A DNA stretch of 64,000 nucleotides from Escherichia phage S143_2, in the sequence record MZ189261.1; one strand, written 5' to 3'. Below are positions 3,664-51,636 of this stretch, in pieces; positions within the stretch are counted from its first letter, which is position 1; each line of letters starts with the position of its first letter. The position numbers were made by a program, and so were the translations under genes. Under the pieces are notes generated by a model. The model was given only the letters and a program-made list of their open reading frames with translations. It made no database searches and was not told the DNA's origin.

Positions 3664-5480
3664 TAGGACATCCATTCTTTACGAAGTTCAGAATCATCAC
3701 CCAACAACATTTCAAAGAGTTCTTTCCAATTTTCAGGAAGTTTAACTACGTCGTACACAGGGTTCTGAATCATTTCACGATATTCTGACTTTTCAAGGGA
3801 GCCCAATCCCTTGATGTATCGAATACTATGCTTAGGCAGTGTATCTTTAGCTTCTTCATACTCAGCTACAGTATAAAACCATTTTTGAGTTTTGCCAATT
3901 TGTGCAATAATTACAGGCGTTTTAACAAAGCGAATACGTCCTTGTTCAAACAATTCAGGCCAATTACTAAAGAAAGCAAGCAAAGCCGGATAAATACTTC
4001 CAAGACCGTCATGATCGGCATCGGTCATAATTGCAATATTACGATAGTTCGTATTCTCTGCCTTTTCACCAAGAATAAGACCTGTGATAGCACAGATATC
4101 AAAGAGCTCTTTGTTCTTCATCATATCAGCATATGACATACCCCAGCTATTCATCACCTTACCACGTAATGGGAATCCGCCGTGTAGTTCACGGTCACGA
4201 ACATCAATGAGATAACCAATTGCCGAATCACCTTCTGTTAAAAACAATGTCGTATCTGCATCTTTACCACATTGGTTAGCTTTAATATGCTTATGAACCT
4301 TAGCTTTAGTTGCCTTTTTAGCTGCTTTAGTTTCTGCAGCCTTTTCTGCTGCCAATTTACGAGCTAATGCTGCTTCAACAATAGGCATAATCAAAGCTTC
4401 ATTTTTAAGAAGTGCCTGAGCAATTTTCTTAGCATCTAATTGGATATGATTACGAATATCACCATACGTTGACGTTAAACGTTCTTTAGTCTGAGAATCA
4501 AAACGCATGTTGCTCATGTCTCTAATAAACATCAACATTGTGAGACATTCTTTAACACGAGCTTTAGTGACTTCAATACCCTTATATTTCTTTTTAATGC
4601 CGGGCAAAAGATGTTCGCAGATATCATCCATTACACATTCAACATGATGACCACCATTTTTAGTATGAATGTTATTCACATAAGTTAAATGACGGAAGCC
4701 GTCTGGTGATGTTGTGAATGCTATAGAGACTTTATCATTTTCTTGAATGATGTTATCTTCACCAAATTGTTTAGCAAATCGTTTAAAATTACCATCAACC
4801 TTTTTACCATTAAATGTGAACTTGATATCAGGATAAACGACTGCCAATGTTTGAAGTCGGTCTAAAGTAATATCTAAATAAATTTGAGATAAATTATGCT
4901 CTTCAAATGAAGAGAAATCAGGAGTGAAGATTACTTTAGTGCCTTTACCTTTAGATTTCTTAGAAGACCATGATTTGTTTTCCATTCCGTTTGAACAGTT
5001 AACAGTGATTTCATTTTCGCCATCTGACGTGATGCCTGTAAACAACGTAGAGAAGATATTAGTTAAACTACTCCCGACGCCGTTCATACCACCAGTCTTA
5101 CGTTCAGAGTCATCGCCAAAGTTACCGCCAGCCTTTGGAATAGTCCAGGCTGCTACAGGCCCAGGAATTTGTTCACCTGTTTGATCGGTAACTAAACCTT
5201 GAGGAATACCACGTCCGTTATCTTCCACCGAAACTTGATTATTTTTAATTTGCACATCGATTTTATTTGCAAACTTAAATGATGTACGAATAGCTTCATC
5301 AACCGAGTTGTCAATAATCTCATCGATTAATTTAACCAGACCGGGAACATATTCAACTTGTTGATATTTACCAAACAAAAAACGCTCGTGGGCTTCTTTA
5401 GCCGAAGATCCAATATACATACCACTACGTTTCTTAATATGTTCTACATCTGATAATACCTTAATTTCATTTTTAATCAT
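3663..5480 (-). CDS. 39: DNA topoisomerase II large (ATPase) subunit, fused gp39+gp60 form
   Basis: 605 aa, MIKNEIKVLSDVEHIKKRSGMYIGS start, GyrB-like; length matches the unsplit 39/60 form. Confidence 0.9.
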   Translation of the reverse strand: MIKNEIKVLSDVEHIKKRSGMYIGSSAKEAHERFLFGKYQQVEYVPGLVKLIDEIIDNSVDEAIRTSFKFANKIDVQIKNNQVSVEDNGRGIPQGLVTDQTGEQIPGPVAAWTIPKAGGNFGDDSERKTGGMNGVGSSLTNIFSTLFTGITSDGENEITVNCSNGMENKSWSSKKSKGKGTKVIFTPDFSSFEEHNLSQIYLDITLDRLQTLAVVYPDIKFTFNGKKVDGNFKRFAKQFGEDNIIQENDKVSIAFTTSPDGFRHLTYVNNIHTKNGGHHVECVMDDICEHLLPGIKKKYKGIEVTKARVKECLTMLMFIRDMSNMRFDSQTKERLTSTYGDIRNHIQLDAKKIAQALLKNEALIMPIVEAALARKLAAEKAAETKAAKKATKAKVHKHIKANQCGKDADTTLFLTEGDSAIGYLIDVRDRELHGGFPLRGKVMNSWGMSYADMMKNKELFDICAITGLILGEKAENTNYRNIAIMTDADHDGLGSIYPALLAFFSNWPELFEQGRIRFVKTPVIIAQIGKTQKWFYTVAEYEEAKDTLPKHSIRYIKGLGSLEKSEYREMIQNPVYDVVKLPENWKELFEMLLGDDSELRKEWMS

Positions 5481-5502
5481 GTTGTCTCCTCGTTATGAAG
5501 GT

Positions 5503-5529
5503 ATTCTATCATCCGAAATCTAAAGCAAA
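5503..5529 (-). promoter_or_regulatory. MotA-box middle promoter candidate for gene 39
   Basis: minus-sense TTTGCTTTA, 12 nt, TAGAAT, then GAGGAGA SD and ATG. Confidence 0.5.
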
Positions 5530-5546
5530 AAGGGCCGAAGCCCTTA
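5520..5546 (-). terminator. UUCG-tetraloop hairpin
   Basis: minus-sense aagggc-ttcg-gccctt followed by tttgcttt. Confidence 0.45.
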
Positions 5547-5969
5547 TTTAAATTTAATTTTCTGAAGTGCATCAATTGCAGCCAAACGCCCTTGTTCACT
5601 TTTAACTGTAATGACCACATCGCCTGATACGATCACCGAACCATCAACAAATTCTATAGAGCCTTTTTTGAAATCGACAGCTGTATCTGGTTCCGGAACT
5701 TCTTCAAAGAATTTAAATTCTGCACCATAAAGCAGAATATCACCTTGCATACTATGAATAGTTCGGCCATAATCGCCTACGGCTTCTACAGCAATCACCG
5801 AAACGCCGTAACCAATCATCTCTTCCACAATAAAATCTTTGGACAATAAAGTAGTATGCAGATTAGTATTAAGACGTTTACCAGTCGTATTAAGAATTCT
5901 CAAGAAATTATCTTCCTGTCCTTTGATAATACGATATTTCTTACCAACTTCAAAACCTTTAAAAGCCAT
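5544..5969 (-). CDS. hypothetical protein (141 aa)
   Basis: ORF track; compact spacing. Confidence 0.5.
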   Translation of the reverse strand: MAFKGFEVGKKYRIIKGQEDNFLRILNTTGKRLNTNLHTTLLSKDFIVEEMIGYGVSVIAVEAVGDYGRTIHSMQGDILLYGAEFKFFEEVPEPDTAVDFKKGSIEFVDGSVIVSGDVVITVKSEQGRLAAIDALQKIKFK

Positions 5970-5971
5970 AA

Positions 5972-6151
5972 TTAACCCTTCTTAAGTAAGTCGTAAAAAC
6001 CACCGTTCACATGTTTAGGAGCAGAAACCCGACGAGTAGACAGACGATGACATTCAGGGCAAACATCGTTTTCTCGTTCAGAAATTCTTTTAATTTTTTC
6101 ATATTCATGGCCACAATCTTCAGATTGACATTTATAGTCGTATAATGGCAT
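5972..6151 (-). CDS. small zinc-ribbon protein, FmdB-like (59 aa, below ORF-track cutoff)
   Basis: hand translation MPLYDYKCQSEDCGHEYEK...CPECH; CxxC...CxxC pattern; ATG 2 nt after upstream stop. Confidence 0.45.
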   Translation of the reverse strand: MPLYDYKCQSEDCGHEYEKIKRISERENDVCPECHRLSTRRVSAPKHVNGGFYDLLKKG

Positions 6152-6153
6152 TA

Positions 6154-6564
6154 TTATTCCTTAAAATGTGTTTTCAACATTTGATACAAAGACCATGCCT
6201 GGTCGTTATTTTCGATAGTAATCGTCATCACCGGAAATTCAGACAATTCACCAAGTTCACCAGAATCTTGCTCTTCAGACGCTTGATACGGATTTTCAAC
6301 TTCGTCAAAGAACTCTGCTTCATTCGTGGAGAGCCAGATAAAGTTTTCATCAAGGATATCACCGCCTGTTGCGTATCCAACCGTGCCAGTAGATGTTAAA
6401 ATTTTAGTAGGACGTCCGAGATGGTCAACATCTAAAATTTTAAAAGGTTCCATGCCAAGACGTCGTGCATAAATCCCATTATCAGTGTGGTCTTTAATAA
6501 ACTCTTCTTGGGCACGTTTATCTATAAATTGGTACCATGAGTTAACGCGGAATTTATTAGCCAT
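6154..6564 (-). CDS. hypothetical protein
   Basis: ORF track; start moved to ATG (MANKFRV) behind GGAAGGAAA SD. Confidence 0.5.
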
Positions 6565-6791
6565 TAGTAAGTTTCCTTCCAATAAGTTGTACCATTTTCA
6601 GTGATTTCACGGAAGATACCATAGATAGGCATTTCATCGCCGAGTTTTTCGTAAACGTAAACCACTTCGGTGTAGCATAAAAATTCGGTCCAGTTTTTCT
6701 GTACAACAACTAAATCAGGATTAAACAGAACATCTTCAAACTCATCGATGTTTGAATCAGTAGTTACGTTTTTAATGATTTGACGTTTCAT
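6564..6791 (-). CDS. hypothetical protein
   Basis: ORF track 6564..6836 trimmed to ATG (MKRQIIK) after AAGAGGAGAA SD; upstream part is a promoter element. Confidence 0.45.
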
Positions 6792-6810
6792 AATATTCTC
6801 CTCTTGTTTT

Positions 6811-6850
6811 GATAGGTCTATAGTATCATAGACCATAGTTGTTGTACATC
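6811..6850 (-). promoter_or_regulatory. early promoter with stem-loop (variant -35)
   Basis: gataggtctatagtatcatagacc inverted repeat around -10 TACTAT; -35-like TGTACA. Confidence 0.4.
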
Positions 6851-7373
6851 ATTTTAGCAAAATAAAATCAACTTGTTCTGCCAATGAACGTCTAAACATT
6901 AATTGACAACTTCCGAGGATGAAATCAGGTGCTTCATAGACCGCGATGTAGTATCCTTTAGCTTTCAAGAGTTCAACATCCACCTGGTCATCAAACCATG
7001 CATAAACCGCGTCAACACTTTCAAATCCAAAATAGAACCCTTGAGCCCAATCTTCACTCAATTCAAATGTGTGATCAATTCTATAGTATCTTAAGATATT
7101 TTGTTCAAGGAGTTTGTCTTCATTTACTGTAGGACGATTAGGGACATTATAGTTGTCGCCATGATGGTAGAAGTTACCTGAGAGTATTCCATGCTTATCA
7201 AGGAACTCCCATGTTTCTTCAGAGTTGTCGGTGCCCGACCAGCCGTATGGCGAGCGAGGTTCTTTATTCCAAGAGGTTTCCCAAATTCTGACGGCTTTAC
7301 CGTCTTCGATAGCAATTCCTGGTAATGATTCACGTTGAGTACAAAAACTACGTTCTACGCGGTAAACTAACAT
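6849..7373 (-). CDS. hypothetical protein (174 aa)
   Basis: ORF track. Confidence 0.55.
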   Translation of the reverse strand: MLVYRVERSFCTQRESLPGIAIEDGKAVRIWETSWNKEPRSPYGWSGTDNSEETWEFLDKHGILSGNFYHHGDNYNVPNRPTVNEDKLLEQNILRYYRIDHTFELSEDWAQGFYFGFESVDAVYAWFDDQVDVELLKAKGYYIAVYEAPDFILGSCQLMFRRSLAEQVDFILLK

Positions 7374-7377
7374 ATTA

Positions 7378-7428
7378 TTCTCCTCTGGTTGATATGGTTA
7401 TAATATCAAAACCGGAGGAGAAGTAAAC
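7378..7428 (-). promoter_or_regulatory. early promoter with stem-loop enclosing -10
   Basis: minus-sense GTTTAC, 17 nt, TATTAT; arms ttctcctccggttttg / caaccagaggagaa, second arm carries the SD. Confidence 0.55.
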
Positions 7429-7432
7429 AACT

Positions 7433-7852
7433 TTATGCAAAAGATGCTGGACAATATTTTTTGATTTGGAACTCAGGAACTACCATGAACTGTCCAGCGA
7501 AAACGATGTTATAAAGCTTAACACCATCTTCTACCCATTGGTCCGAAATAAAACCAGCAACTTGCTTAGTTTTCCACGGTGTTCCATCAGTTGCCGCAGC
7601 AATAGTGAATTCATGGTCTTTTACAACTAAAACAGACCTGCACAGTTTCCATTTGAACACACGTTCTTCTGGCTCAATGAATTGGCTTTTAACATAACCA
7701 ATGTTACCATCAACGTCACGAACTTTAACTTCGTTACGTCCAAAAACCGGATCACTCACAGAAAGAACTTCAACCAACTTCCCGGCAACTTTAGAGCGAG
7801 AAGCAACAGATACATATACGTAATCACCTGTAGAGAGATTTACAATATTCAT
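7433..7852 (-). CDS. KOW-like small protein, MotB-like paralog 1
   Basis: shares SRSK(A/V)AG(K/R)LVEV and GFISDQWVEDG.KLYNIVF blocks with next ORF; lies upstream of dexA as motB does in T4. Confidence 0.5.
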   Translation of the reverse strand: MNIVNLSTGDYVYVSVASRSKVAGKLVEVLSVSDPVFGRNEVKVRDVDGNIGYVKSQFIEPEERVFKWKLCRSVLVVKDHEFTIAAATDGTPWKTKQVAGFISDQWVEDGVKLYNIVFAGQFMVVPEFQIKKYCPASFA

Positions 7853-7861
7853 AATAATTCC

Positions 7862-8392
7862 TTAAGCTTTACGAGGAGACACATAGCGAGTGATTTCAGA
7901 TTCTTTAACAACTCGGAAGTCACCTAAGAATACGATATTGTATAACTTTTCGCCATCTTCAACCCATTGGTCACTAATGAAGCCACACATGGTATCAGTT
8001 GTGCTTGGATAACCGTATTCGTCGATGTAATCAAATTCTTTATCGGTTATAAATTCAACGCCTTTGCAAAGGGCCCATTTGAACTGTACATTAGGCTCAG
8101 TGGATTCACATACGTATCCATCACATGATTCAACTTCTTCAACAGAAGAAAAGTGTGCAGGTGCAACTTCTTCGCTTGAAGCAAATTGGACTCGTATATG
8201 TTTTTCCAGGAATTTAGGACTTACGTAAGCATACTGGGCATCTTGTCCGCCAAAACTGGGCATGATTCGAACTTTAACTTCTTTAACACGTCCCATGCCG
8301 TTAGTACGAAGCCCTGCGACTTCAACCAGACGACCTGCAGCTTTAGAACGAGAAGCAGGAGATACACGAAGGATTTCACCAATAGTAATCAT
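7862..8392 (-). CDS. KOW-like small protein, MotB-like paralog 2
   Basis: paralog of 7433..7852; ORF track start (TTG) trimmed to ATG (MITIGEILRV). Confidence 0.5.
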   Translation of the reverse strand: MITIGEILRVSPASRSKAAGRLVEVAGLRTNGMGRVKEVKVRIMPSFGGQDAQYAYVSPKFLEKHIRVQFASSEEVAPAHFSSVEEVESCDGYVCESTEPNVQFKWALCKGVEFITDKEFDYIDEYGYPSTTDTMCGFISDQWVEDGEKLYNIVFLGDFRVVKESEITRYVSPRKA

Positions 8393-8422
8393 ATTTTTTC
8401 TCTCTTTGTTTAAGTTGAATTC

Positions 8423-8452
8423 ATTATACTCCAACCATCCTTGGTTGTAAAC
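8423..8452 (-). promoter_or_regulatory. early promoter cassette class A
   Basis: minus-sense GTTTAC, 18 nt with caaccaaggatggttg hairpin, TATAAT; same cassette at 49593 and 50613. Confidence 0.55.
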
Positions 8453-8457
8453 TGGTT

Positions 8458-9135
8458 TTATCGCTGTTTTACACTTAACGGATCAGGATTCTCAGGGACA
8501 TCTTCAAGGCCAAGCGCATAACGCTGGGCATATTTTAACATCAAAATATCTTTAGCACAATCATGAATACTATCATGGGCAACGAATCCTTTTAGCGTAC
8601 CCATTGGTAATGGACACATACTTAATCCTCGTGTCAACGAGTAAGCTTCGATTGCCGTACGAATATCGCGTTGAGCCCAGAATTTAACCGGTTCTAATTT
8701 ATCAGTATCAATCTCTGGTTCAGGAACACCTTCATCACGATAGAGGTCACGAATCAAATCAACCAAGATCGGGAAGTCAAAGCTCATACCACGGCACCAC
8801 ATCTGTGATTTCCATTGGTCAACTTTATTAGCTCGACAATAATCTAAAAAGATTTTAATGCCTTCAAGCGTAGTGACATCGTCTTCAGACGGAGCCAAGT
8901 TTTTACGTGCTTCAGCCGATTGTTCTTTCCACCATTTCATAGTGGATTTAGCGAAAACTCGCTTCCCTTTCTGAGAAGCTAAATTAAATTTAATTCGCTT
9001 ACCTCGTTGAACAAGTTCTTCAAATGATTCAACAACTTCAGGGTCGGAATTATATGCAATAACCGCAAGGTCAATAACAGCCGCTTTTGATGTATTGCCG
9101 AATGTTTCAAAATCTATAATAACATCAGTGCTCAT
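8458..9135 (-). CDS. dexA: exonuclease A (DnaQ-like 3'-5' exonuclease)
   Basis: IIDFETFG exo motif, 225 aa, synteny with dda. Confidence 0.8.
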   Translation of the reverse strand: MSTDVIIDFETFGNTSKAAVIDLAVIAYNSDPEVVESFEELVQRGKRIKFNLASQKGKRVFAKSTMKWWKEQSAEARKNLAPSEDDVTTLEGIKIFLDYCRANKVDQWKSQMWCRGMSFDFPILVDLIRDLYRDEGVPEPEIDTDKLEPVKFWAQRDIRTAIEAYSLTRGLSMCPLPMGTLKGFVAHDSIHDCAKDILMLKYAQRYALGLEDVPENPDPLSVKQR

Positions 9136-9144
9136 AATTTTCTC

Positions 9145-10458
9145 TCAAATAAAATGGACGTCAAACCGACCACGAGTTGTGCCGACATACAATAACTGTT
9201 TAGCTAATTCTGAATCAGCGTAATGGATACACGGTGTATAAACAAAGGCCGTGTCAACAGACATACCCTGGGCCTTATGGAAGGTTGATACTGGTAGTGC
9301 CTTCACCTTAGTGAACATACGTTTAGCATCCCAGAATTCGCTCCATGGAGCTTTACCACCTTTATTCCAAAATTTGTATGTTTCTGCGGTCTTAGCCAAA
9401 AACAAATTGAACTTATAAAGCTCTTCTTCAGAAGAAATAACCTTTATATCTTCGCGGATGTATTCTTCATCATCCCCGTATGTTTCTACTGTAAGATTCC
9501 AGTATCGTATCATATATTCGCCTGAAACACCACGTGCTTTAACAAATGTAGACGTTTCTACAGCATCTCGAATACGAACGAATTGGCCGTTATTGAAAAG
9601 CATTTCGGTCATATTTTTACCATCTAGCTTATATGTCTTAGTAAATGGCTCTTGTAGAACAATGACTTCGTCTTTAATAAATGGTTTTTCTGTTTCAAGA
9701 AGTTTTCGGCGAATAATTGAATTTAACTTGTCCACCGACTTATTTGTGAATGCCATCATTCGATTTTCGAAAAGGTCTTCAGGAGTTTTAACGACGTTAA
9801 AATAGTTCATCATATACGATTTAAGGTCTGTATATCCATGAACACCGTGCCCATCAACTACTTTATCATAAATCCATTTCCCATTACGAATATCAGTCGC
9901 AACATCAATAATTGGTGCATTGCTACGTTTAACTTCTGTAAGGTTGCATTGCACGAAGTCTTTGTGGGTGAAGAAAGGACTTAGATACGCAGTTGATTCG
10001 CCTGGGTCTACCGGACGAATCTGGCAACGGTCGCCGATTCCAATTACTGTACACCATTTAGGGATACTAGCTAACATTATTTTAAACAGAGAACGGTCGC
10101 ACATTGACGCTTCATCAAATAACAGTACACGACACAAGGCTAAGTCTGGAACCTTTTTCTGTTCAAACAATACGTTTTCTTCGTATGTAGTTGGGTTGAT
10201 TTTAAGAATGCTATGAATAGTCGATGCTTCTTGACCAGCAAGTTTACTTAGAACCTTTTTAGCGGCATGTGTAGGGGCTGCTAAAATAATACCTGATTCT
10301 CCAGAAGAAATAAGGGCTTCAACGATGAATCTAGTAAGGGTTGTTTTACCTGTACCAGCAGGCCCATTAATAGTTACGTGATGTTTCTTTTCTTTAATAG
10401 CGTTCATAACAACGTTGAAGGCGTTTTTCTGGCCTTCAGTCAAATCATCAAATGTCAT
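9145..10458 (-). CDS. dda: Dda DNA helicase (SF1B)
   Basis: Walker A GPAGTGKTT, 437 aa, MTFDDLTEGQKNAF start typical of T4 Dda. Confidence 0.9.
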   Translation of the reverse strand: MTFDDLTEGQKNAFNVVMNAIKEKKHHVTINGPAGTGKTTLTRFIVEALISSGESGIILAAPTHAAKKVLSKLAGQEASTIHSILKINPTTYEENVLFEQKKVPDLALCRVLLFDEASMCDRSLFKIMLASIPKWCTVIGIGDRCQIRPVDPGESTAYLSPFFTHKDFVQCNLTEVKRSNAPIIDVATDIRNGKWIYDKVVDGHGVHGYTDLKSYMMNYFNVVKTPEDLFENRMMAFTNKSVDKLNSIIRRKLLETEKPFIKDEVIVLQEPFTKTYKLDGKNMTEMLFNNGQFVRIRDAVETSTFVKARGVSGEYMIRYWNLTVETYGDDEEYIREDIKVISSEEELYKFNLFLAKTAETYKFWNKGGKAPWSEFWDAKRMFTKVKALPVSTFHKAQGMSVDTAFVYTPCIHYADSELAKQLLYVGTTRGRFDVHFI

Positions 10459-10766
10459 CGTAAAGTCCCTGCAATTGGAATACTAACAATACGGCCTGTG
10501 TCCAGGATTCGTTGATACAATTTTTGCGTCTCCGCATCTAGTTTAACGTGTTTCATTTCAAGCTTATTAAACCAGAACTTACGCGGAGTTTCAACCATTC
10601 TTAGAACTCCCATTTTTAAATCTGTTTTATACTGTGTTTTCAAAGTATCGAAAACTTTATCTGCAATATCCTTTCTAAAAAATACTGCAGGACGATGCTC
10701 ATCAAGTGGAACCGGGACAGTAAATCCTTCCATATCTCGATAAACTATTGCATATACATAAACCAT
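10455..10766 (-). CDS. hypothetical protein (dda.1 position)
   Basis: ORF track; start overlaps dda stop. Confidence 0.5.
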   Translation of the reverse strand: MVYVYAIVYRDMEGFTVPVPLDEHRPAVFFRKDIADKVFDTLKTQYKTDLKMGVLRMVETPRKFWFNKLEMKHVKLDAETQKLYQRILDTGRIVSIPIAGTLR

Positions 10767-10768
10767 AA

Positions 10769-11515
10769 TTAACCTTTAATCAGTTGGAATAATGATGCGC
10801 TAAGTGGTAAGCCACGTTTCAATTTTAATTTACCAATGAAACCAATCTTTTCAAAACGTTGCAGACCTTGGATAACTTTATCATATGTATCGAAAAGCGA
10901 TTCAGCGTCAGTTAATTTAGTTTTAGTTTTCCAGTCAGAGCCTTTAAGAAGAACGTTGAGTTTAGTAAGTTCATGGCCTTCTGCTTGATGTGAGCCATTA
11001 ATGCGTGCTTTCAAAGCAACAATTCTAAGTTTAGATTCGTTAGATAAAGGTTGATTTTTCATCATGTTCGCCATATGCTTAACACGATTTTCACGTTTTG
11101 CTCGGATTTTTAAAATAGTACCATAAACCTTTTTAATTTGGGCCCATTTCTTCTCATCGAGATTAAGTTTCTCTACTTTACGGGCAGAAGGATTAGCAAT
11201 ACGTCTTGCAACAGCGTCACGTTTCTCAATAAGTTCTTCTAATGTTAAATCAGAACGAGCCGTGTTATATTTTTTCTTAACCGGGATAACATTACCTTTA
11301 ATGTAGCCGATATCGTTATTAAAACGTTCTAAGGATAATTTCTCACCTTCAACAGAGTTATTGAAAGATTCACCTGAGTAAGCGCAGACCTTTTGATCAA
11401 GAATGTTTTTAAGGTAATTAAAGTCTAAGTTAAAATCCTTAGAGCGTCTCTTCGCAGAAGCTCTGGTGTGGTCAAGACGACGATTGATTTTGTTAATTTT
11501 ATTATTTGATAACAT
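10769..11515 (-). CDS. hypothetical basic protein (Srd position); degenerate HNH-like motif
   Basis: 248 aa, CAYSGESF...NDIGYIKGNVIPV; synteny only. Confidence 0.45.
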   Translation of the reverse strand: MLSNNKINKINRRLDHTRASAKRRSKDFNLDFNYLKNILDQKVCAYSGESFNNSVEGEKLSLERFNNDIGYIKGNVIPVKKKYNTARSDLTLEELIEKRDAVARRIANPSARKVEKLNLDEKKWAQIKKVYGTILKIRAKRENRVKHMANMMKNQPLSNESKLRIVALKARINGSHQAEGHELTKLNVLLKGSDWKTKTKLTDAESLFDTYDKVIQGLQRFEKIGFIGKLKLKRGLPLSASLFQLIKG

Positions 11516-48308: not shown

Positions 48309-48613
48309 TATAATGTTCTCTCAAATTTGTGGAAGCATTTACGGCATTTCAATTTCAAGTTATCGGTGGTCCAGTTAACCAGTTGGACTTGGATAGTTCC
48401 ACATTCCGGACATGGATGTTTTGCTGCCGATTTGGCAGCATTTTCACGTCGTTCAACCATTTTCATTATTTCGTTCCATGCCGGAGGAACGAACTCTTCT
48501 TCACCGTGGATTTTATCTCGCTGAACAAATTCAATCTTTGAACTATCGTCAATAAACTTAACCAAGCCATGATTAGTGCTCATATCAATATCCTCTAAAA
48601 GACGTAGTTTCAT
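48308..48613 (-). CDS. zinc-ribbon protein (101 aa)
   Basis: CPEC...CRKC. Confidence 0.5.
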   Translation of the reverse strand: MKLRLLEDIDMSTNHGLVKFIDDSSKIEFVQRDKIHGEEEFVPPAWNEIMKMVERRENAAKSAAKHPCPECGTIQVQLVNWTTDNLKLKCRKCFHKFERTL

Positions 48614-49563
48614 TATAACACCTCAATGGCATTTCGTAAGCCATCCGCTTTCGCATTCAGAGCTTTTAACGATTTAGTTTGTTCTGCAATCTGGGCTTCG
48701 ACTTCTTTCAGACGAGATTTGAGATATTCGCGTTCTTCTCTTAAGTTATCAACTTTTTCTGCTTTAGGCTCTTTAATAGGCTTAGGTTTATACGTATTAG
48801 GGTTCTTCAGCTTAATTTGAATACGAGAACTGAATAACATTGAACCATTATCTTCAGTTTCGCTGAACATTTCAACAACATCCATAGTCTGTAACATCAT
48901 ACGAAGTTTATAAGACAGCGAACGAACGGTTTTGTTGCGCTTATTAATTTCTTCGGCTTTCATGGTACCGAGATTACGTGAGTAGTAATAAGGAACCTGG
49001 ATATCAATTGACAATGATGCGTTACCATTACCAGTTGGTTTGAATACTGCAGTAACCCAATCTTTAACATGAACTTTATTTGTACGACCATCACCGCCTG
49101 TGAATAATTTACGTGAATGTTTAAAAAGCATATTCACTTGGTTATTGAATTCACAAGCAAATTTATCAGCAAATTTAGTTTCAGGAATGGTAGATAACCA
49201 ATCAGCCAAATGAGTCTTTTTAACATCGTTAATAATAGTAAATTCAACTAAATCAGTTTTAGATGTCACAGATTTAATAAAGCTCGGCTTCATAAAGTTT
49301 TTAATGTTATCACGAGCTACAGTAGAAGATAATAAACGAGAACGTTTGAACCATTGAAGCAGTGTCCCTAATGAATGAGAATACGCATTCTGAGTATCTT
49401 TACAGATATGATTTTCTTGGCCTGTGTATGTACCAAAATCGCGAAGAATACCACTTACTACAACTCGGTGTGGAACATCAAATCCTAATGAACCAGAAGC
49501 ACGTTGGGCATGAACGTTAGCGATAAGACCTGCAAAATAATCAATGTAATGTGAACGTGTCAT
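48613..49563 (-). CDS. hypothetical protein with C-terminal coiled coil (316 aa)
   Basis: heptad-rich C-terminal about 60 aa; first of three similarly built genes. Confidence 0.55.
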   Translation of the reverse strand: MTRSHYIDYFAGLIANVHAQRASGSLGFDVPHRVVVSGILRDFGTYTGQENHICKDTQNAYSHSLGTLLQWFKRSRLLSSTVARDNIKNFMKPSFIKSVTSKTDLVEFTIINDVKKTHLADWLSTIPETKFADKFACEFNNQVNMLFKHSRKLFTGGDGRTNKVHVKDWVTAVFKPTGNGNASLSIDIQVPYYYSRNLGTMKAEEINKRNKTVRSLSYKLRMMLQTMDVVEMFSETEDNGSMLFSSRIQIKLKNPNTYKPKPIKEPKAEKVDNLREEREYLKSRLKEVEAQIAEQTKSLKALNAKADGLRNAIEVL

Positions 49564-49592
49564 AATATTTTCCTCTCGTTAAGATAGAAAGA

Positions 49593-49621
49593 TTATACTC
49601 CAACCATCCTTGGTTGTAAAC
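49593..49621 (-). promoter_or_regulatory. early promoter cassette class A
   Basis: minus-sense GTTTAC, 17 nt with caaccaaggatggttg hairpin, TATAAT. Confidence 0.55.
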
Positions 49622-49625
49622 TGAT

Positions 49626-50585
49626 TTATGATTTTAATGCATTCATTGCGTTAAAAAGTTTAGAGTACTGCAACTGGAGCTTGGTAACTACTTGTTGAGC
49701 ATCACGAAGCTTAGCTTGTGCTTTGTCAAGTTCAACAGACAGTTGGTCCACAGTGGCTTTAATTTGATTATAATAGTAATCTTCGGCCGGAAGAAGGTCA
49801 TTAGAAACATTTAGTTTTACTGCAGACAGTTTGCACACATTTGGCAAACCTTTAAACATTGATTTACCCGAAGTAGAATAAGCACTTAGGACTTCGGCCT
49901 GTTCAATTGGGGTCCCAGTAAGCGATGCTTCAAACAATGCATTTTCCTTTTTAAGATTTTGATAGTATTCAGAGTCTTTGTGCCACCATGGCGCAGGAAC
50001 CTTTTTACCAATAGATACACGAGCCTGGATAGCGATATGGCCCTTATTCTTGATAGGGTCGATAATATTAAGCTCACGAGAATAAATTGCTTTAATCTGG
50101 TGAATATTATCACCTAACACTTCCAACGCTCGGTGGAATACACGAGCAACGTTATCATTCTTAGGTTTATACGTAAGAGTGAACTCGTTCTCACTGATAA
50201 CCATGATTTCCAACTTATCGTAAGTATATTTCAAATGTTTCATGTTAATTGCTTGAGGACGAATACGAGAAGCAATGGCCATCAGATTGTTAAGGTTATT
50301 CCGGAACTGCTTAGCGAAATATTGTCCTTCACCACCAATACAAAAATTACGAAGTTTCTGTTTGGCTAATAAACGGCTGAACTCACCATTTTTAATGAAC
50401 TCTTTAACGGGTGTGTTAGTAACGCATTCAAATTGAGTAAACTTACGAGAAGTAATCCCATAATACGAACAGATTTCCTCAATCTCTTCAGGAGTCTTTA
50501 CAGGCATACGGATAGGATTAGGACCTGGGGTATATGCGTTCGAGGTAAATTCTTTGATAAGTTCTCTACGTGTAATAAAAGCCAT
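49626..50585 (-). CDS. hypothetical protein with C-terminal coiled coil (319 aa)
   Basis: ORF track. Confidence 0.55.
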   Translation of the reverse strand: MAFITRRELIKEFTSNAYTPGPNPIRMPVKTPEEIEEICSYYGITSRKFTQFECVTNTPVKEFIKNGEFSRLLAKQKLRNFCIGGEGQYFAKQFRNNLNNLMAIASRIRPQAINMKHLKYTYDKLEIMVISENEFTLTYKPKNDNVARVFHRALEVLGDNIHQIKAIYSRELNIIDPIKNKGHIAIQARVSIGKKVPAPWWHKDSEYYQNLKKENALFEASLTGTPIEQAEVLSAYSTSGKSMFKGLPNVCKLSAVKLNVSNDLLPAEDYYYNQIKATVDQLSVELDKAQAKLRDAQQVVTKLQLQYSKLFNAMNALKS

Positions 50586-50612
50586 TTTATATTCCTCATG
50601 TTGAAAAATTTA

Positions 50613-50641
50613 TTATACTCCAACCATCCTTGGTTGTACAT
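50613..50641 (-). promoter_or_regulatory. early promoter cassette class A (variant -35)
   Basis: same ctccaaccatccttggttg core, TATAAT, -35 TGTACA. Confidence 0.5.
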
Positions 50642-51636
50642 CATTCCTTAAGAAGTTTTACTACCTGAATAAGATTAGCTCGTTCTGTTTTATTTTTACC
50701 GTTTAAGCCTGCTAATCGTGAGATTTCATCGTCAGTCTGTTGAATAGTTACATTAAGTTCGTTAATCAAAGCTTCAAAGTATTTGATTTGCTCAGCATGT
50801 TTTGATTCAAATTTCTGAACTGGAATAACGTCTTGGTTTAGTTCATCAATAAGGTCTTTAAGAGCATCTTCTTGGTTGATATCATATTCAACTTCTTTTA
50901 TTTCTTCAACGAGCTCGTCTTTATATCTAACGTCTTTTAGTCCTGGTGCTGGTCCTGAAATCTCTTCTTTAAGAGTACAAACATATCCAATACGATATCC
51001 AATGCCGTCTCGCTTGATATCAACTTCGTCAATAAATCCACAATGTTTAAGACCAGAGCCGATTAAGTCAAAATATCCTTGACGTCGTCCTTCAAACGTT
51101 ACACGAACTACTAAGACAGTTTTACCTGCAACCTTTTGAAGCTCACATTTATAAAAGTCTGTTGAACCTGAATAACGTGGATGAGTTTTAAAGTTCATCT
51201 GACGATCTAGGCCCATTTGTAAGCGTGCTGATACGGCCATAAAACGTGTTTGGTTCTCGTTAAGATGAGCAACAATCCATTTCAAAGGCATTTTACACTG
51301 TTCACGACCGAACAAATCAGTATATCCTAGATTACGCAGAATGTTGTTAGAGTTAATCATCGACAGAACGTTAAGTTTATTCAGCGCGCTGAAGATTCCA
51401 TCGGCCATTGATTTTCCGTAACCTTTACACGCTTTAATAAGCGCTCGCGGTAGATTAGTATAGATTTCAGACGGCATATGAAAATCAAATTTACTAGTCA
51501 GTAATTGATGAACTTGGATAGCAATTTGCTCATAATTAAGCGCTCTGCGATCATTATGGTCTTTAAACCACACTTTAATCTGTGAAGCACATAAACCGTT
51601 AATTTCATGTTTTACCGCATCAGATGTAATGCTCAT
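50641..51636 (-). CDS. hypothetical protein with C-terminal coiled coil (331 aa)
   Basis: ORF track. Confidence 0.55.
   Translation of the reverse strand: MSITSDAVKHEINGLCASQIKVWFKDHNDRRALNYEQIAIQVHQLLTSKFDFHMPSEIYTNLPRALIKACKGYGKSMADGIFSALNKLNVLSMINSNNILRNLGYTDLFGREQCKMPLKWIVAHLNENQTRFMAVSARLQMGLDRQMNFKTHPRYSGSTDFYKCELQKVAGKTVLVVRVTFEGRRQGYFDLIGSGLKHCGFIDEVDIKRDGIGYRIGYVCTLKEEISGPAPGLKDVRYKDELVEEIKEVEYDINQEDALKDLIDELNQDVIPVQKFESKHAEQIKYFEALINELNVTIQQTDDEISRLAGLNGKNKTERANLIQVVKLLKE

What the first reader, a model, noticed from the sequence alone, without database searches (positions are those of the whole stretch)
7433..8392. Tandem duplicated MotB-like genes
ORFs 7433..7852 and 7862..8392 share two conserved blocks (SRSK(A/V)AG(K/R)LVEV and GFISDQWVEDG.KLYNIVF) but differ in the middle. 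They sit where T4 has a single motB. Each has its own early promoter (7378 and 8423), suggesting independent expression.
Basis: seen in the sequence. Interest (0 to 1): 0.4.

Follow-up and report, generated by a model that had tools for sequence, protein, structure and literature searches.

The report
Two adjacent MotB genes, RB69-like phage
An RB69-like T-even phage carries two diverged, adjacent copies of the early DNA-binding protein gene motB; both copies look functional, but the pair is already annotated in many phages and has been noted in print for RB69, so it is ordinary.

Summary
Two adjacent minus-strand ORFs, 8392..7862 (176 aa, "long") and 7852..7433 (139 aa, "short"), are full-length homologues: 38% identity, E 4e-29. 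Both pass the Pfam motB model PF17613.

The long copy is the canonical MotB: a basic KOW-like N-domain, a disordered acidic linker of about 36 aa, and the conserved C-domain. The short copy is a divergent paralogue with a 5-aa linker and an uncharged N-domain. It is under strong purifying selection (dN/dS 0.08-0.22).

About 200 of about 750 MotB-bearing phage records carry this same pair. These include Mosigvirus and RB68-type Tequatrovirus. T4, Dhakavirus and a Klebsiella phage have one motB.

The promoter claim does not hold. Only one early promoter (8451->8423) lies upstream of the pair, and the genes are 9 bp apart. The second site (7427->7400) lies downstream of the short gene and would serve the motB.2 homologue.

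Patterson-West et al. 2021 already reported two motB copies in RB69, and RefSeq labels both genes MotB-like.

By-products of the check:
- The window has lost the motB.1-like gene by recombination between repeated promoter cassettes.
- The linker is an indel hotspot.
- Natural MotB domain-swap hybrids exist in public assemblies.

Interest is low.

The parts
8423..8452 (-). Early-type sigma-70 promoter cassette GTTTACAACCAAGGATGGTTGGAGTATAAT. It has -35 TTTACA, a 17-nt spacer containing the hairpin AACCA-AGGA-TGGTT, and -10 TATAAT. It is the only promoter-like site upstream of the motB pair.
   Evidence: Consensus scan gives 11/12. The same 30-mer recurs at 49592-49621 and 50612-50641, with 0 expected by chance. 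In relatives two copies flank the motB.1-like gene.
7862..8392 (-). MotB 'long' (176 aa), the canonical MotB orthologue. N-domain: residues 1-64 (8201-8392). Disordered acidic linker: residues 65-100 (8093-8200). C-domain: residues 101-176 (7865-8092).
   Evidence: PF17613 at 122.4 bits. 43% identity to T4 MotB, E 1e-40. The AF2 model shows two folded domains and a linker with pLDDT below 50. Net charges are +6 / -7 / -5.
8131..8188 (-). Imperfect 33-nt-spaced direct repeat inside the linker-coding region. It coincides with the in-frame length polymorphism seen among relatives.
   Evidence: Repeat family D2. Relatives differ here by 33-nt and 66-nt in-frame gaps: 176 aa in the window and ST0, 165 in AV111, 154 in HX01.
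7853..7861 (-). 9-bp intergenic gap. The Shine-Dalgarno AAGGA overlaps the long gene's TAA stop, giving an operon-like junction.
   Evidence: Sequence read directly.
7433..7852 (-). MotB 'short' (139 aa), a divergent linkerless paralogue. N-domain: residues 1-60 (7673-7852). C-domain: residues 66-139 (7436-7657).
   Evidence: PF17613 at 80.4 bits and phrog_1671 at E 1.4e-51. AF2 pLDDT 87.2, pTM 0.71, with no disordered segment. dN/dS 0.08-0.22. Orthologues of 84-97% identity occur in 207 phage records, and all those listed are 139 aa.
7400..7427 (-). Promoter-like site TTTACT-16-TATTAT (TG-extended). It lies downstream of the short motB gene and upstream of the motB.2 homologue, so it is context and not part of the pair's expression.
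6849..7373 (-). ORF174, a homologue of T4 motB.2 (context). It lies downstream of the motB genes here, but upstream of them in T4.
   Evidence: 34% identity to T4 MotB.2, E 1e-15. phrog_1106.

Best explanation
The locus encodes two functional, anciently diverged paralogues of the T-even early protein MotB. They are most likely co-transcribed as a two-gene unit from the single early promoter at 8451->8423, plus any read-through from dda/dexA.

The upstream 'long' gene is the canonical MotB. It has a basic KOW/Tudor-like SH3-barrel N-domain, a flexible acidic linker, and the conserved DQWVEDG C-domain. By homology with T4 MotB it should bind DNA without sequence specificity and interfere with the host nucleoid protein H-NS early in infection.

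The downstream 'short' gene has the same two domains joined almost directly, and it has lost the positive charge of the N-domain. It has probably specialised, with weaker or different nucleic-acid binding or partner binding through the shared C-domain, and is not a spare copy.

Shown here: homology, domain architecture, purifying selection, gene order, promoter positions and phylogenetic distribution. Inferred: DNA and H-NS activity, co-transcription, and any division of labour.
For: - Homology: full-length homology between the two. Both pass PF17613 and phrog_1671.
- Orthology: the long copy is 43% identical to T4 MotB and the short copy 39%.
- Selection: dN/dS is 0.08-0.22 for the short copy and 0.17-0.60 for the long copy across Mosigvirus and RB68 orthologues. 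Paralogue dS is about 1.3 and the longest shared exact DNA word is 14 nt, so there has been no recent duplication or gene conversion.
- Co-occurrence: 207 records carry a short-type orthologue and 201 carry a long-type one. Every sampled record of either kind has two places, while nearly all the others have one.
- Same order in another genus: RB68 (Tequatrovirus) has the same order, motB then short.
- Charge: canonical N-domains are +4 to +8 and short-type N-domains average -0.3.
- Expression signals: there is one upstream promoter, a 9-bp gap and an SD overlapping the stop codon.
- Function of T4 MotB: it is toxic, binds DNA non-specifically, copurifies with H-NS/StpA, doubles burst size, and relieves H-NS repression when overexpressed (PMC6070864, PMC7827196).
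Against: - No expression or biochemical data exist for either protein of this phage or of RB69.
- The long copy is acidic overall in this window (net -6, pI 5.1), unlike T4 MotB (+6, pI 9.2). T4's DNA-binding behaviour may therefore not transfer directly.
- The promoter call is a consensus match only. An internal start for the short gene, from a promoter type the scan does not cover, cannot be excluded.
Confidence: 0.72

Rival explanations
1. The short copy is not a local duplication product. It is a xenologue: a divergent MotB allele acquired from another T-even lineage and inserted next to the resident motB by recombination. In that case 'tandem duplication' describes the layout and not the origin.
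For: - The short type is about equally distant from every canonical MotB type (N-domain 42-47%, C-domain 45-51%). The canonical types are 55-71% and 47-96% identical to each other.
- The long+short module is shared between Mosigvirus and RB68-type Tequatrovirus, and RB68's motB is of the Mosigvirus type, not the T4 type. The module therefore moves horizontally.
- Promoter-cassette and domain-level recombination is demonstrably active at this locus.
Against: - Among 1.84 billion representative proteins the short type forms a single 50% cluster, with no independent lineage in which it is the sole MotB.
- In deposited phage genomes every sampled short-type record has a second MotB place.
- Faster evolution of one copy after duplication explains the same distances.
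Confidence: 0.25
2. The pair is a simple redundant or dosage duplication. Both proteins would do the same job, and the second copy only raises MotB output.
For: Both keep the invariant family residues (30 invariant columns across 119 sequences). They share a fold.
Against: - They are only 38% identical with saturated synonymous divergence.
- The architectural and charge differences are systematic and conserved. All 26 short-type sequences lack the linker and have an N-domain charge of -2 to +1, against +5 to +10 in the long type.
- Both are kept under purifying selection in about 200 genomes.
Confidence: 0.1
3. The short ORF is a decaying remnant, or the similarity is a chance or low-complexity match.
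For: It is shorter than canonical MotB, and some records annotate it as 'hypothetical protein'.
Against: - BLASTP E 4e-29 over both domains, and PF17613 at 80 bits.
- The listed 84-94% orthologues are 139 aa with one 145-aa exception, and dN/dS is about 0.1.
- The AF2 model is confident, with pLDDT 87.
Confidence: 0.02

Closest known systems
Bacteriophage T4 MotB (gene motB, 162 aa; Pfam PF17613)
   Same: - Same family by HMM, and the same position in the dda-dexA...cef early region.
- Same two-domain layout, with the SRSKAAG(K/R)LVEV and DQWVEDG.KLYN motifs.
- The long copy keeps the basic N-domain.
   Different: - T4 has one full-length motB.
- T4 MotB is basic overall (+6). The window's long copy is acidic overall (-6), with a longer acidic linker and an acidic C-domain.
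- The short copy has no linker and a neutral N-domain.
- Identity to T4 MotB is only 39-43%.
The two motB copies of phage RB69 and other Mosigvirus (HX01, JS09, ST0, AV111, AV114), and of RB68-type Tequatrovirus
   Same: - This is the same gene pair in the same order.
- The short copy is 84-97% identical and the long copy up to 97-98% identical to deposited genes. These are annotated 'MotB-like transcriptional regulator (x2)' in RefSeq.
- Patterson-West et al. [quoted passage not shown]
- AV114 has exactly the window's architecture.
   Different: - The window lacks the motB.1-like gene that most relatives carry upstream of the pair.
- It carries the longest linker variant (176 aa).
- No record in the phage collection is identical.
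T4 MotB.1 and its full-length homologues (164-182 aa)
   Same: It shares the MotB C-domain motif (GWVTDQWIEDGVELLNVV) and is adjacent to motB in most T-even phages (PMC7827196). It illustrates the same theme of one C-domain combined with different N-domains.
   Different: The N-domain is an unrelated LSm-like barrel (PMC12152347). The gene is absent from this window.
PeSL (promoter-early stem-loop) cassettes of T4-type phages (Arbiol et al. 2010; Comeau et al. 2014)
   Same: - It is a repeated early-promoter cassette matching the T4/PST-type consensus TTTACW-N17-TAYWAT.
- Two copies flank a dispensable gene in relatives. A single chimeric copy marks the clean deletion in the window, exactly as in the published RB49/phi1 ORF192 example.
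   Different: Here the small hairpin (5-bp stem) sits inside the -35/-10 spacer. It is not a separate terminator-like stem-loop next to the promoter. Terminator activity is not expected and was not tested.

Membership tests
MotB family (Pfam PF17613 / phrog_1671) | Sequence match to the family HMM above the curated threshold | tested here: met
   The long copy scores 122.4 bits and the short copy 80.4 bits against a cutoff of 25. phrog_1671 gives E 3e-62 and 1.4e-51.
MotB family (Pfam PF17613 / phrog_1671) | Two-domain architecture: a KOW-like SH3-barrel N-domain plus a conserved C-domain with the DQWVEDG core | tested here: met
MotB family (Pfam PF17613 / phrog_1671) | C-domain is an OB-fold (HHpred assignment in PMC7827196) | tested here: inconclusive
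MotB family (Pfam PF17613 / phrog_1671) | Located in the dexA-cef early, dispensable region of a Tevenvirinae genome | tested here: met
   The window order is dda, dexA, MotB-long, MotB-short, motB.2 homologue, cef, goF. The region is about 97% identical to Mosigvirus genomes.
MotB family (Pfam PF17613 / phrog_1671) | Basic N-domain / net basic protein, consistent with non-specific DNA binding | tested here: inconclusive
   The long N-domain is +6, but the whole protein is -6. The short N-domain is 0 and the whole protein is +1. T4 MotB is +6. The feature is met for the long N-domain only.
MotB family (Pfam PF17613 / phrog_1671) | Non-specific DNA binding, H-NS/StpA co-purification, toxicity in E. 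coli, burst-size benefit | not testable with these tools
   These properties are known only for T4 MotB (PMC6070864, PMC7827196).
PeSL recombination cassettes | Near-consensus early promoter of the T4/PST type (TTTACW-N17-TAYWAT) | tested here: met
   TTTACA-17-TATAAT at 8451->8423. The consensus is quoted from PMC4122927.
PeSL recombination cassettes | Adjacent stem-loop acting as a terminator | tested here: not met
   There is only a 5-bp hairpin inside the spacer. No terminator-like site was found on the minus strand.
PeSL recombination cassettes | Multiple copies per genome that flank genes variably present between close relatives, with a single chimeric copy at the deletion | tested here: met
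   There are 3 copies in the window against 0 expected. Two copies flank the motB.1-like gene in AV111, ST0 and HX01, and one copy remains in the window.

The most novel reading that the evidence does not exclude
The pair is a complementary, subfunctionalised system and not two stand-alone MotBs. The long copy would retain the DNA-binding basic N-domain, with an acidic linker and C-domain. The short copy would retain an uncharged-to-basic C-domain with a neutral N-domain. The two would act together, for example as a heteromer through the shared C-domain, to remodel H-NS-DNA complexes.

Three observations fit this reading. The two types co-occur almost one-to-one. Natural single-gene hybrids (canonical N-domain plus short-type C-domain: P0028 and P0029, net +9 and +7) restore a T4-like basic protein. 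In the one hybrid contig that spans the whole locus (L006), the hybrid is the only full-length motB there.
Probability: 0.12. Interest if true: 0.45.

Novelty: already known. Interest (0 to 1): 0.2.

Why it matters
MotB is one of the few T4 early 'host-takeover' proteins with a proposed target, the xenogeneic silencer H-NS. A conserved second paralogue with a different linker and charge, found in about a quarter of MotB-bearing coliphages, is a natural handle for dissecting which domain does what. The pair itself is already annotated and published for RB69, so the finding adds detail and not a new kind of system.

The locus is also a clean textbook example of two evolutionary processes. One is gene loss mediated by a repeated promoter cassette. 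The other is domain-level mosaicism among phage paralogues.

Tried and rejected
- **MotA-dependent middle promoter for the short gene.** The only TGCTT...TAnnnT match (8231->8211) has a box-to-(-10) spacing about 5 nt too short against the T4 consensus as I remember it. It lies in coding sequence and is treated as chance.
- **Structured RNAs.** No Rfam match at E<=0.1 in 5000-11000.
- **Solved structures by sequence.** None; the best hit has E 0.96.
- **Recent gene conversion between the copies.** Rejected: the longest shared exact word is 14 nt, and only 38 of 67 identical-residue columns share a codon.
- **Klebsiella phage 126-aa MotB as a relative of the short type.** Rejected: it is a MotB N-domain fused to a motB.1-type C-domain.
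- **The three ~320-aa ORFs behind the other two promoter cassettes as tandem paralogues.** There is no detectable sequence similarity between the two I compared (E 1.2), and all three fall in different PHROGs.
- **Hybrids P0028 and P0029 in isolate genomes.** Not found; the best matches are 80% and 76%. They are known only from run and metagenome assemblies. P0029 recurs in 5 contigs from at least 3 samples. Its junction microhomology is under 20 nt, which argues against an assembly artefact.

Full report
**1. What is in the sequence**

The interval holds two adjacent ORFs on the minus strand. The first runs 8392..7862 (176 aa from ATG; the mechanical ORF starts at TTG 8434). The second runs 7852..7433 (139 aa).

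BLASTP between them gives 38% identity, E 4e-29. The alignment covers both proteins almost end to end, with one 35-residue gap.

So is a third block, FKW.LC, and there is weaker similarity in between.

Both proteins pass the curated Pfam motB model PF17613 (122.4 and 80.4 bits; cutoff 25). Both also hit phrog_1671, 'MotB-like transcriptional regulator'.

**2. Genomic setting**

The window is from an RB69-like phage (genus Mosigvirus). The region 6500-9200 is 96-97.5% identical to phages ST0, AV111, HX01, DCP548 and others.

The minus-strand gene order is:
- dda (10458..9145)
- dexA (9135..8458)
- MotB-long
- MotB-short
- ORF174 (7373..6849), a homologue of T4 motB.2 (34% identity, E 1e-15)
- cef (6836..6564)
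- goF

.

T4 has dexA-motB.2-motB.1-motB-cef.

The long copy is the closer of the two to T4 MotB: 43% identity, E 1e-40, against 39% and E 3e-27 for the short copy.

**3. Expression signals**

The only good promoter-like site upstream of the pair is TTTACA-17-TATAAT at 8451->8423 on the minus strand (11/12 match).

The TTG at 8434 lies between its -35 and -10 elements. ATG 8392, which is conserved in all relatives and corresponds to the T4 MotB start, is therefore the real start codon.

The two genes are 9 bp apart, and an AAGGA Shine-Dalgarno overlaps the long gene's TAA stop. No minus-strand promoter-like or terminator-like site lies between them.

That site is downstream of the short gene's stop codon and upstream of ORF174. 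Position 7378 is ORF174's ribosome-binding site.

'Each has its own promoter' is therefore not supported. Co-transcription is the likelier reading, but this is inferred and not shown.

**4. Structure and chemistry**

With a 119-sequence family alignment, AlphaFold2 gives a confident compact model for the short copy: pLDDT 87.2, pTM 0.71, with four strands followed by five strands.

For the long copy it gives two folded domains (residues 1-64 and 101-176) with the same order of elements. They are joined by a linker (residues 65-100) with pLDDT below 50.

The charges differ systematically:
- Canonical MotB N-domains are basic (+4 to +8).
- The short type's N-domain is neutral (mean -0.3 over 26 sequences).
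- The long type's C-domain is acidic (about -4), while the short and T4 types are near 0.
- In the window the long protein is net -6 (N-domain +6, linker -7, C-domain -5). The short protein is +1. T4 MotB is +6.

.

**5. Are both genes functional?**

Nei-Gojobori dN/dS among the window, AV111, ST0, HX01 and RB68 orthologues is 0.08-0.22 for the short gene and 0.17-0.60 for the long gene. At the largest distance the long gene is about 0.25.

The listed full-length short orthologues of 84-94% identity are 139 aa, with one exception of 145 aa.

Between the paralogues dS is about 1.3, which is saturated. The longest shared exact DNA word is 14 nt. The split is therefore old, with no recent gene conversion.

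**6. Copy number in related phages**

tblastn with the short protein finds 766 phage records. Of these, 207 hold an orthologue of 80% identity or more. All 16 such records in the sampled listing have two places, whereas 42 of 44 sampled others have one.

With the long protein, 201 records hold a match of 60% or more, again all with two places in the sample. Identity here is depressed by linker indels.

The long-type allele and the short gene therefore co-occur almost one-to-one.

The pair is present in Mosigvirus (ST0, HX01, AV111, AV114, JS09, ATK47) and in a subset of Tequatrovirus. RB68 has dexA-motB.2-motB.1-motB-short-ORF89-cef, and ime09, PP01 and Sf24 also carry it. RB68's motB belongs to the Mosigvirus 'long' type and not to the T4 type.

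T4, T2, T6, Dhakavirus WG01 and a Klebsiella phage each have one motB.

Domain-wise, the short type is the outlier. It is 42-47% (N-domain) and 45-51% (C-domain) identical to every canonical type. The canonical types are 55-71% and 47-96% identical to one another.

This fits either accelerated divergence after an old duplication or acquisition of a divergent allele. I cannot separate the two.

In a library of 1.84 billion representatives the whole family amounts to 22 clusters, and the short type is one of them.

**7. Comparison with what is known**

T4 MotB is a toxic, sequence-non-specific DNA-binding early protein. It copurifies with H-NS/StpA, doubles burst size, alters H-NS footprints, and derepresses H-NS-silenced genes when overexpressed (PMC6070864; PMC7827196).

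[quoted passage not shown] RefSeq and PHROG-based annotations label both genes 'MotB-like transcriptional regulator' in HX01, RB68 and others.

The tandem pair is thus already known, though I found no study of the short copy itself.

**8. By-products**

(a) *Loss of the motB.1-like gene.* Most close relatives carry a 164-aa motB.1-like gene between dexA and the long motB. It is flanked by two copies of a ~30-bp early-promoter cassette.

The window has one cassette and no gene. The cassette's left part is of the upstream type and its right flank is of the downstream type. This is a clean deletion by recombination within the cassette, as described for PeSL elements (PMC2839356, PMC4122927). AV114 shares this architecture.

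The same 30-mer recurs at 49592-49621 and 50612-50641.

(b) *Linker indels.* The long gene's linker is an in-frame indel hotspot, giving 176, 165, 157 and 154 aa in different phages. It is associated with an imperfect 33-nt-spaced repeat. Part of the window's linker (VEEVES-DGYVCES) is shared with Dhakavirus MotB.

(c) *Natural mosaics.* Public assemblies contain three hybrid forms:
- P0029: a T4-type gene whose C-domain core is replaced by the short type. It occurs in 5 contigs from at least 3 samples, with junction microhomology under 20 nt.
- P0028: long-type N-domain plus short-type C-domain. In the contig that spans the locus (L006) it is the only full-length motB between motB.1 and cef.
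- P0031: the crossover lies in the DQWVEDG block.

. None occurs in the deposited phage genomes.

**9. Verdict**

The feature is a known, annotated gene pair, so interest is low.

The most novel reading still open is that the two proteins are complementary halves of one H-NS-directed system. I give that about a 12% chance.

Noticed in passing
window 8393-8457 (cassette 8423-8452); compare L003 2923-3483, L001, L005: The window lacks the 164-aa motB.1-like gene that AV111, ST0 and HX01 carry between dexA and motB. In those phages two copies of a ~30-bp early-promoter cassette flank the gene. The window has one chimeric copy, which indicates deletion by recombination within the cassette (PeSL-like). 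AV114 has the same deletion architecture, and PTE-Eco05 looks the same by match length.
   Followed up: yes
window 49592-49621 and 50612-50641 (minus strand): Two further copies (0 and 2 mismatches) of the promoter cassette GTTTACAACCAAGGATGGTTGGAGTATAAT. The copy at 49592-49621 precedes ORF 48613..49563 and the copy at 50612-50641 precedes ORF 49626..50585; a third ORF of similar size, 50641..51636, lies just upstream. The three ORFs (316-331 aa) belong to different PHROGs of unknown function. The two I compared (48613..49563 and 49626..50585) show no detectable similarity.
   Followed up: partly
window 8093-8200 (repeat 8131-8155 / 8164-8188): The linker-coding part of the long motB is an in-frame indel hotspot, giving 176, 165, 157 and 154 aa in close relatives, and it contains an imperfect 33-nt-spaced repeat. 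The VEEVES-DGYVCES segment is shared with Dhakavirus MotB linkers.
   Followed up: partly
L006 1373-1894; L007 4001-4492; L008; L009; protein P0031: Public assemblies contain natural MotB mosaics. P0029 is a T4-type motB with the short-type C-domain core (several samples). P0028 joins the long N-domain to the short C-domain and is the only full-length motB in its locus (L006). P0031 has its crossover in the DQWVEDG block. None occurs in the 50,697 deposited phage genomes.
   Followed up: partly
window 6154-6582 and 5544-5969 (minus strand): The goF homologue (74% identical to T4 GoF) and a second 141-aa ORF, sitting where T4 has the 65-aa 39.1, both hit phrog_622. They may be a second pair of related early genes, separated by the 39.2 zinc-ribbon gene. 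Direct BLASTP between them is not significant (E 0.45).
   Followed up: no
window 6849-7373 (minus strand): The motB.2 homologue (174 aa) lies downstream of the motB genes and has its own promoter-like site (7427->7400). In T4, RB68 and Dhakavirus, motB.2 lies upstream, right after dexA. This is a local gene-order rearrangement between genera.
   Followed up: partly
window 6564-6836 and 6154-6582: Start codons are ambiguous. cef can be read as 90 aa (as AV111 and HX01 annotate it) or 75 aa (ST0 RefSeq), and the Pfam match begins at residue 16. The mechanical goF ORF starts at a TTG that overlaps cef, while the ATG at residue 7 matches the T4 GoF start.
   Followed up: no
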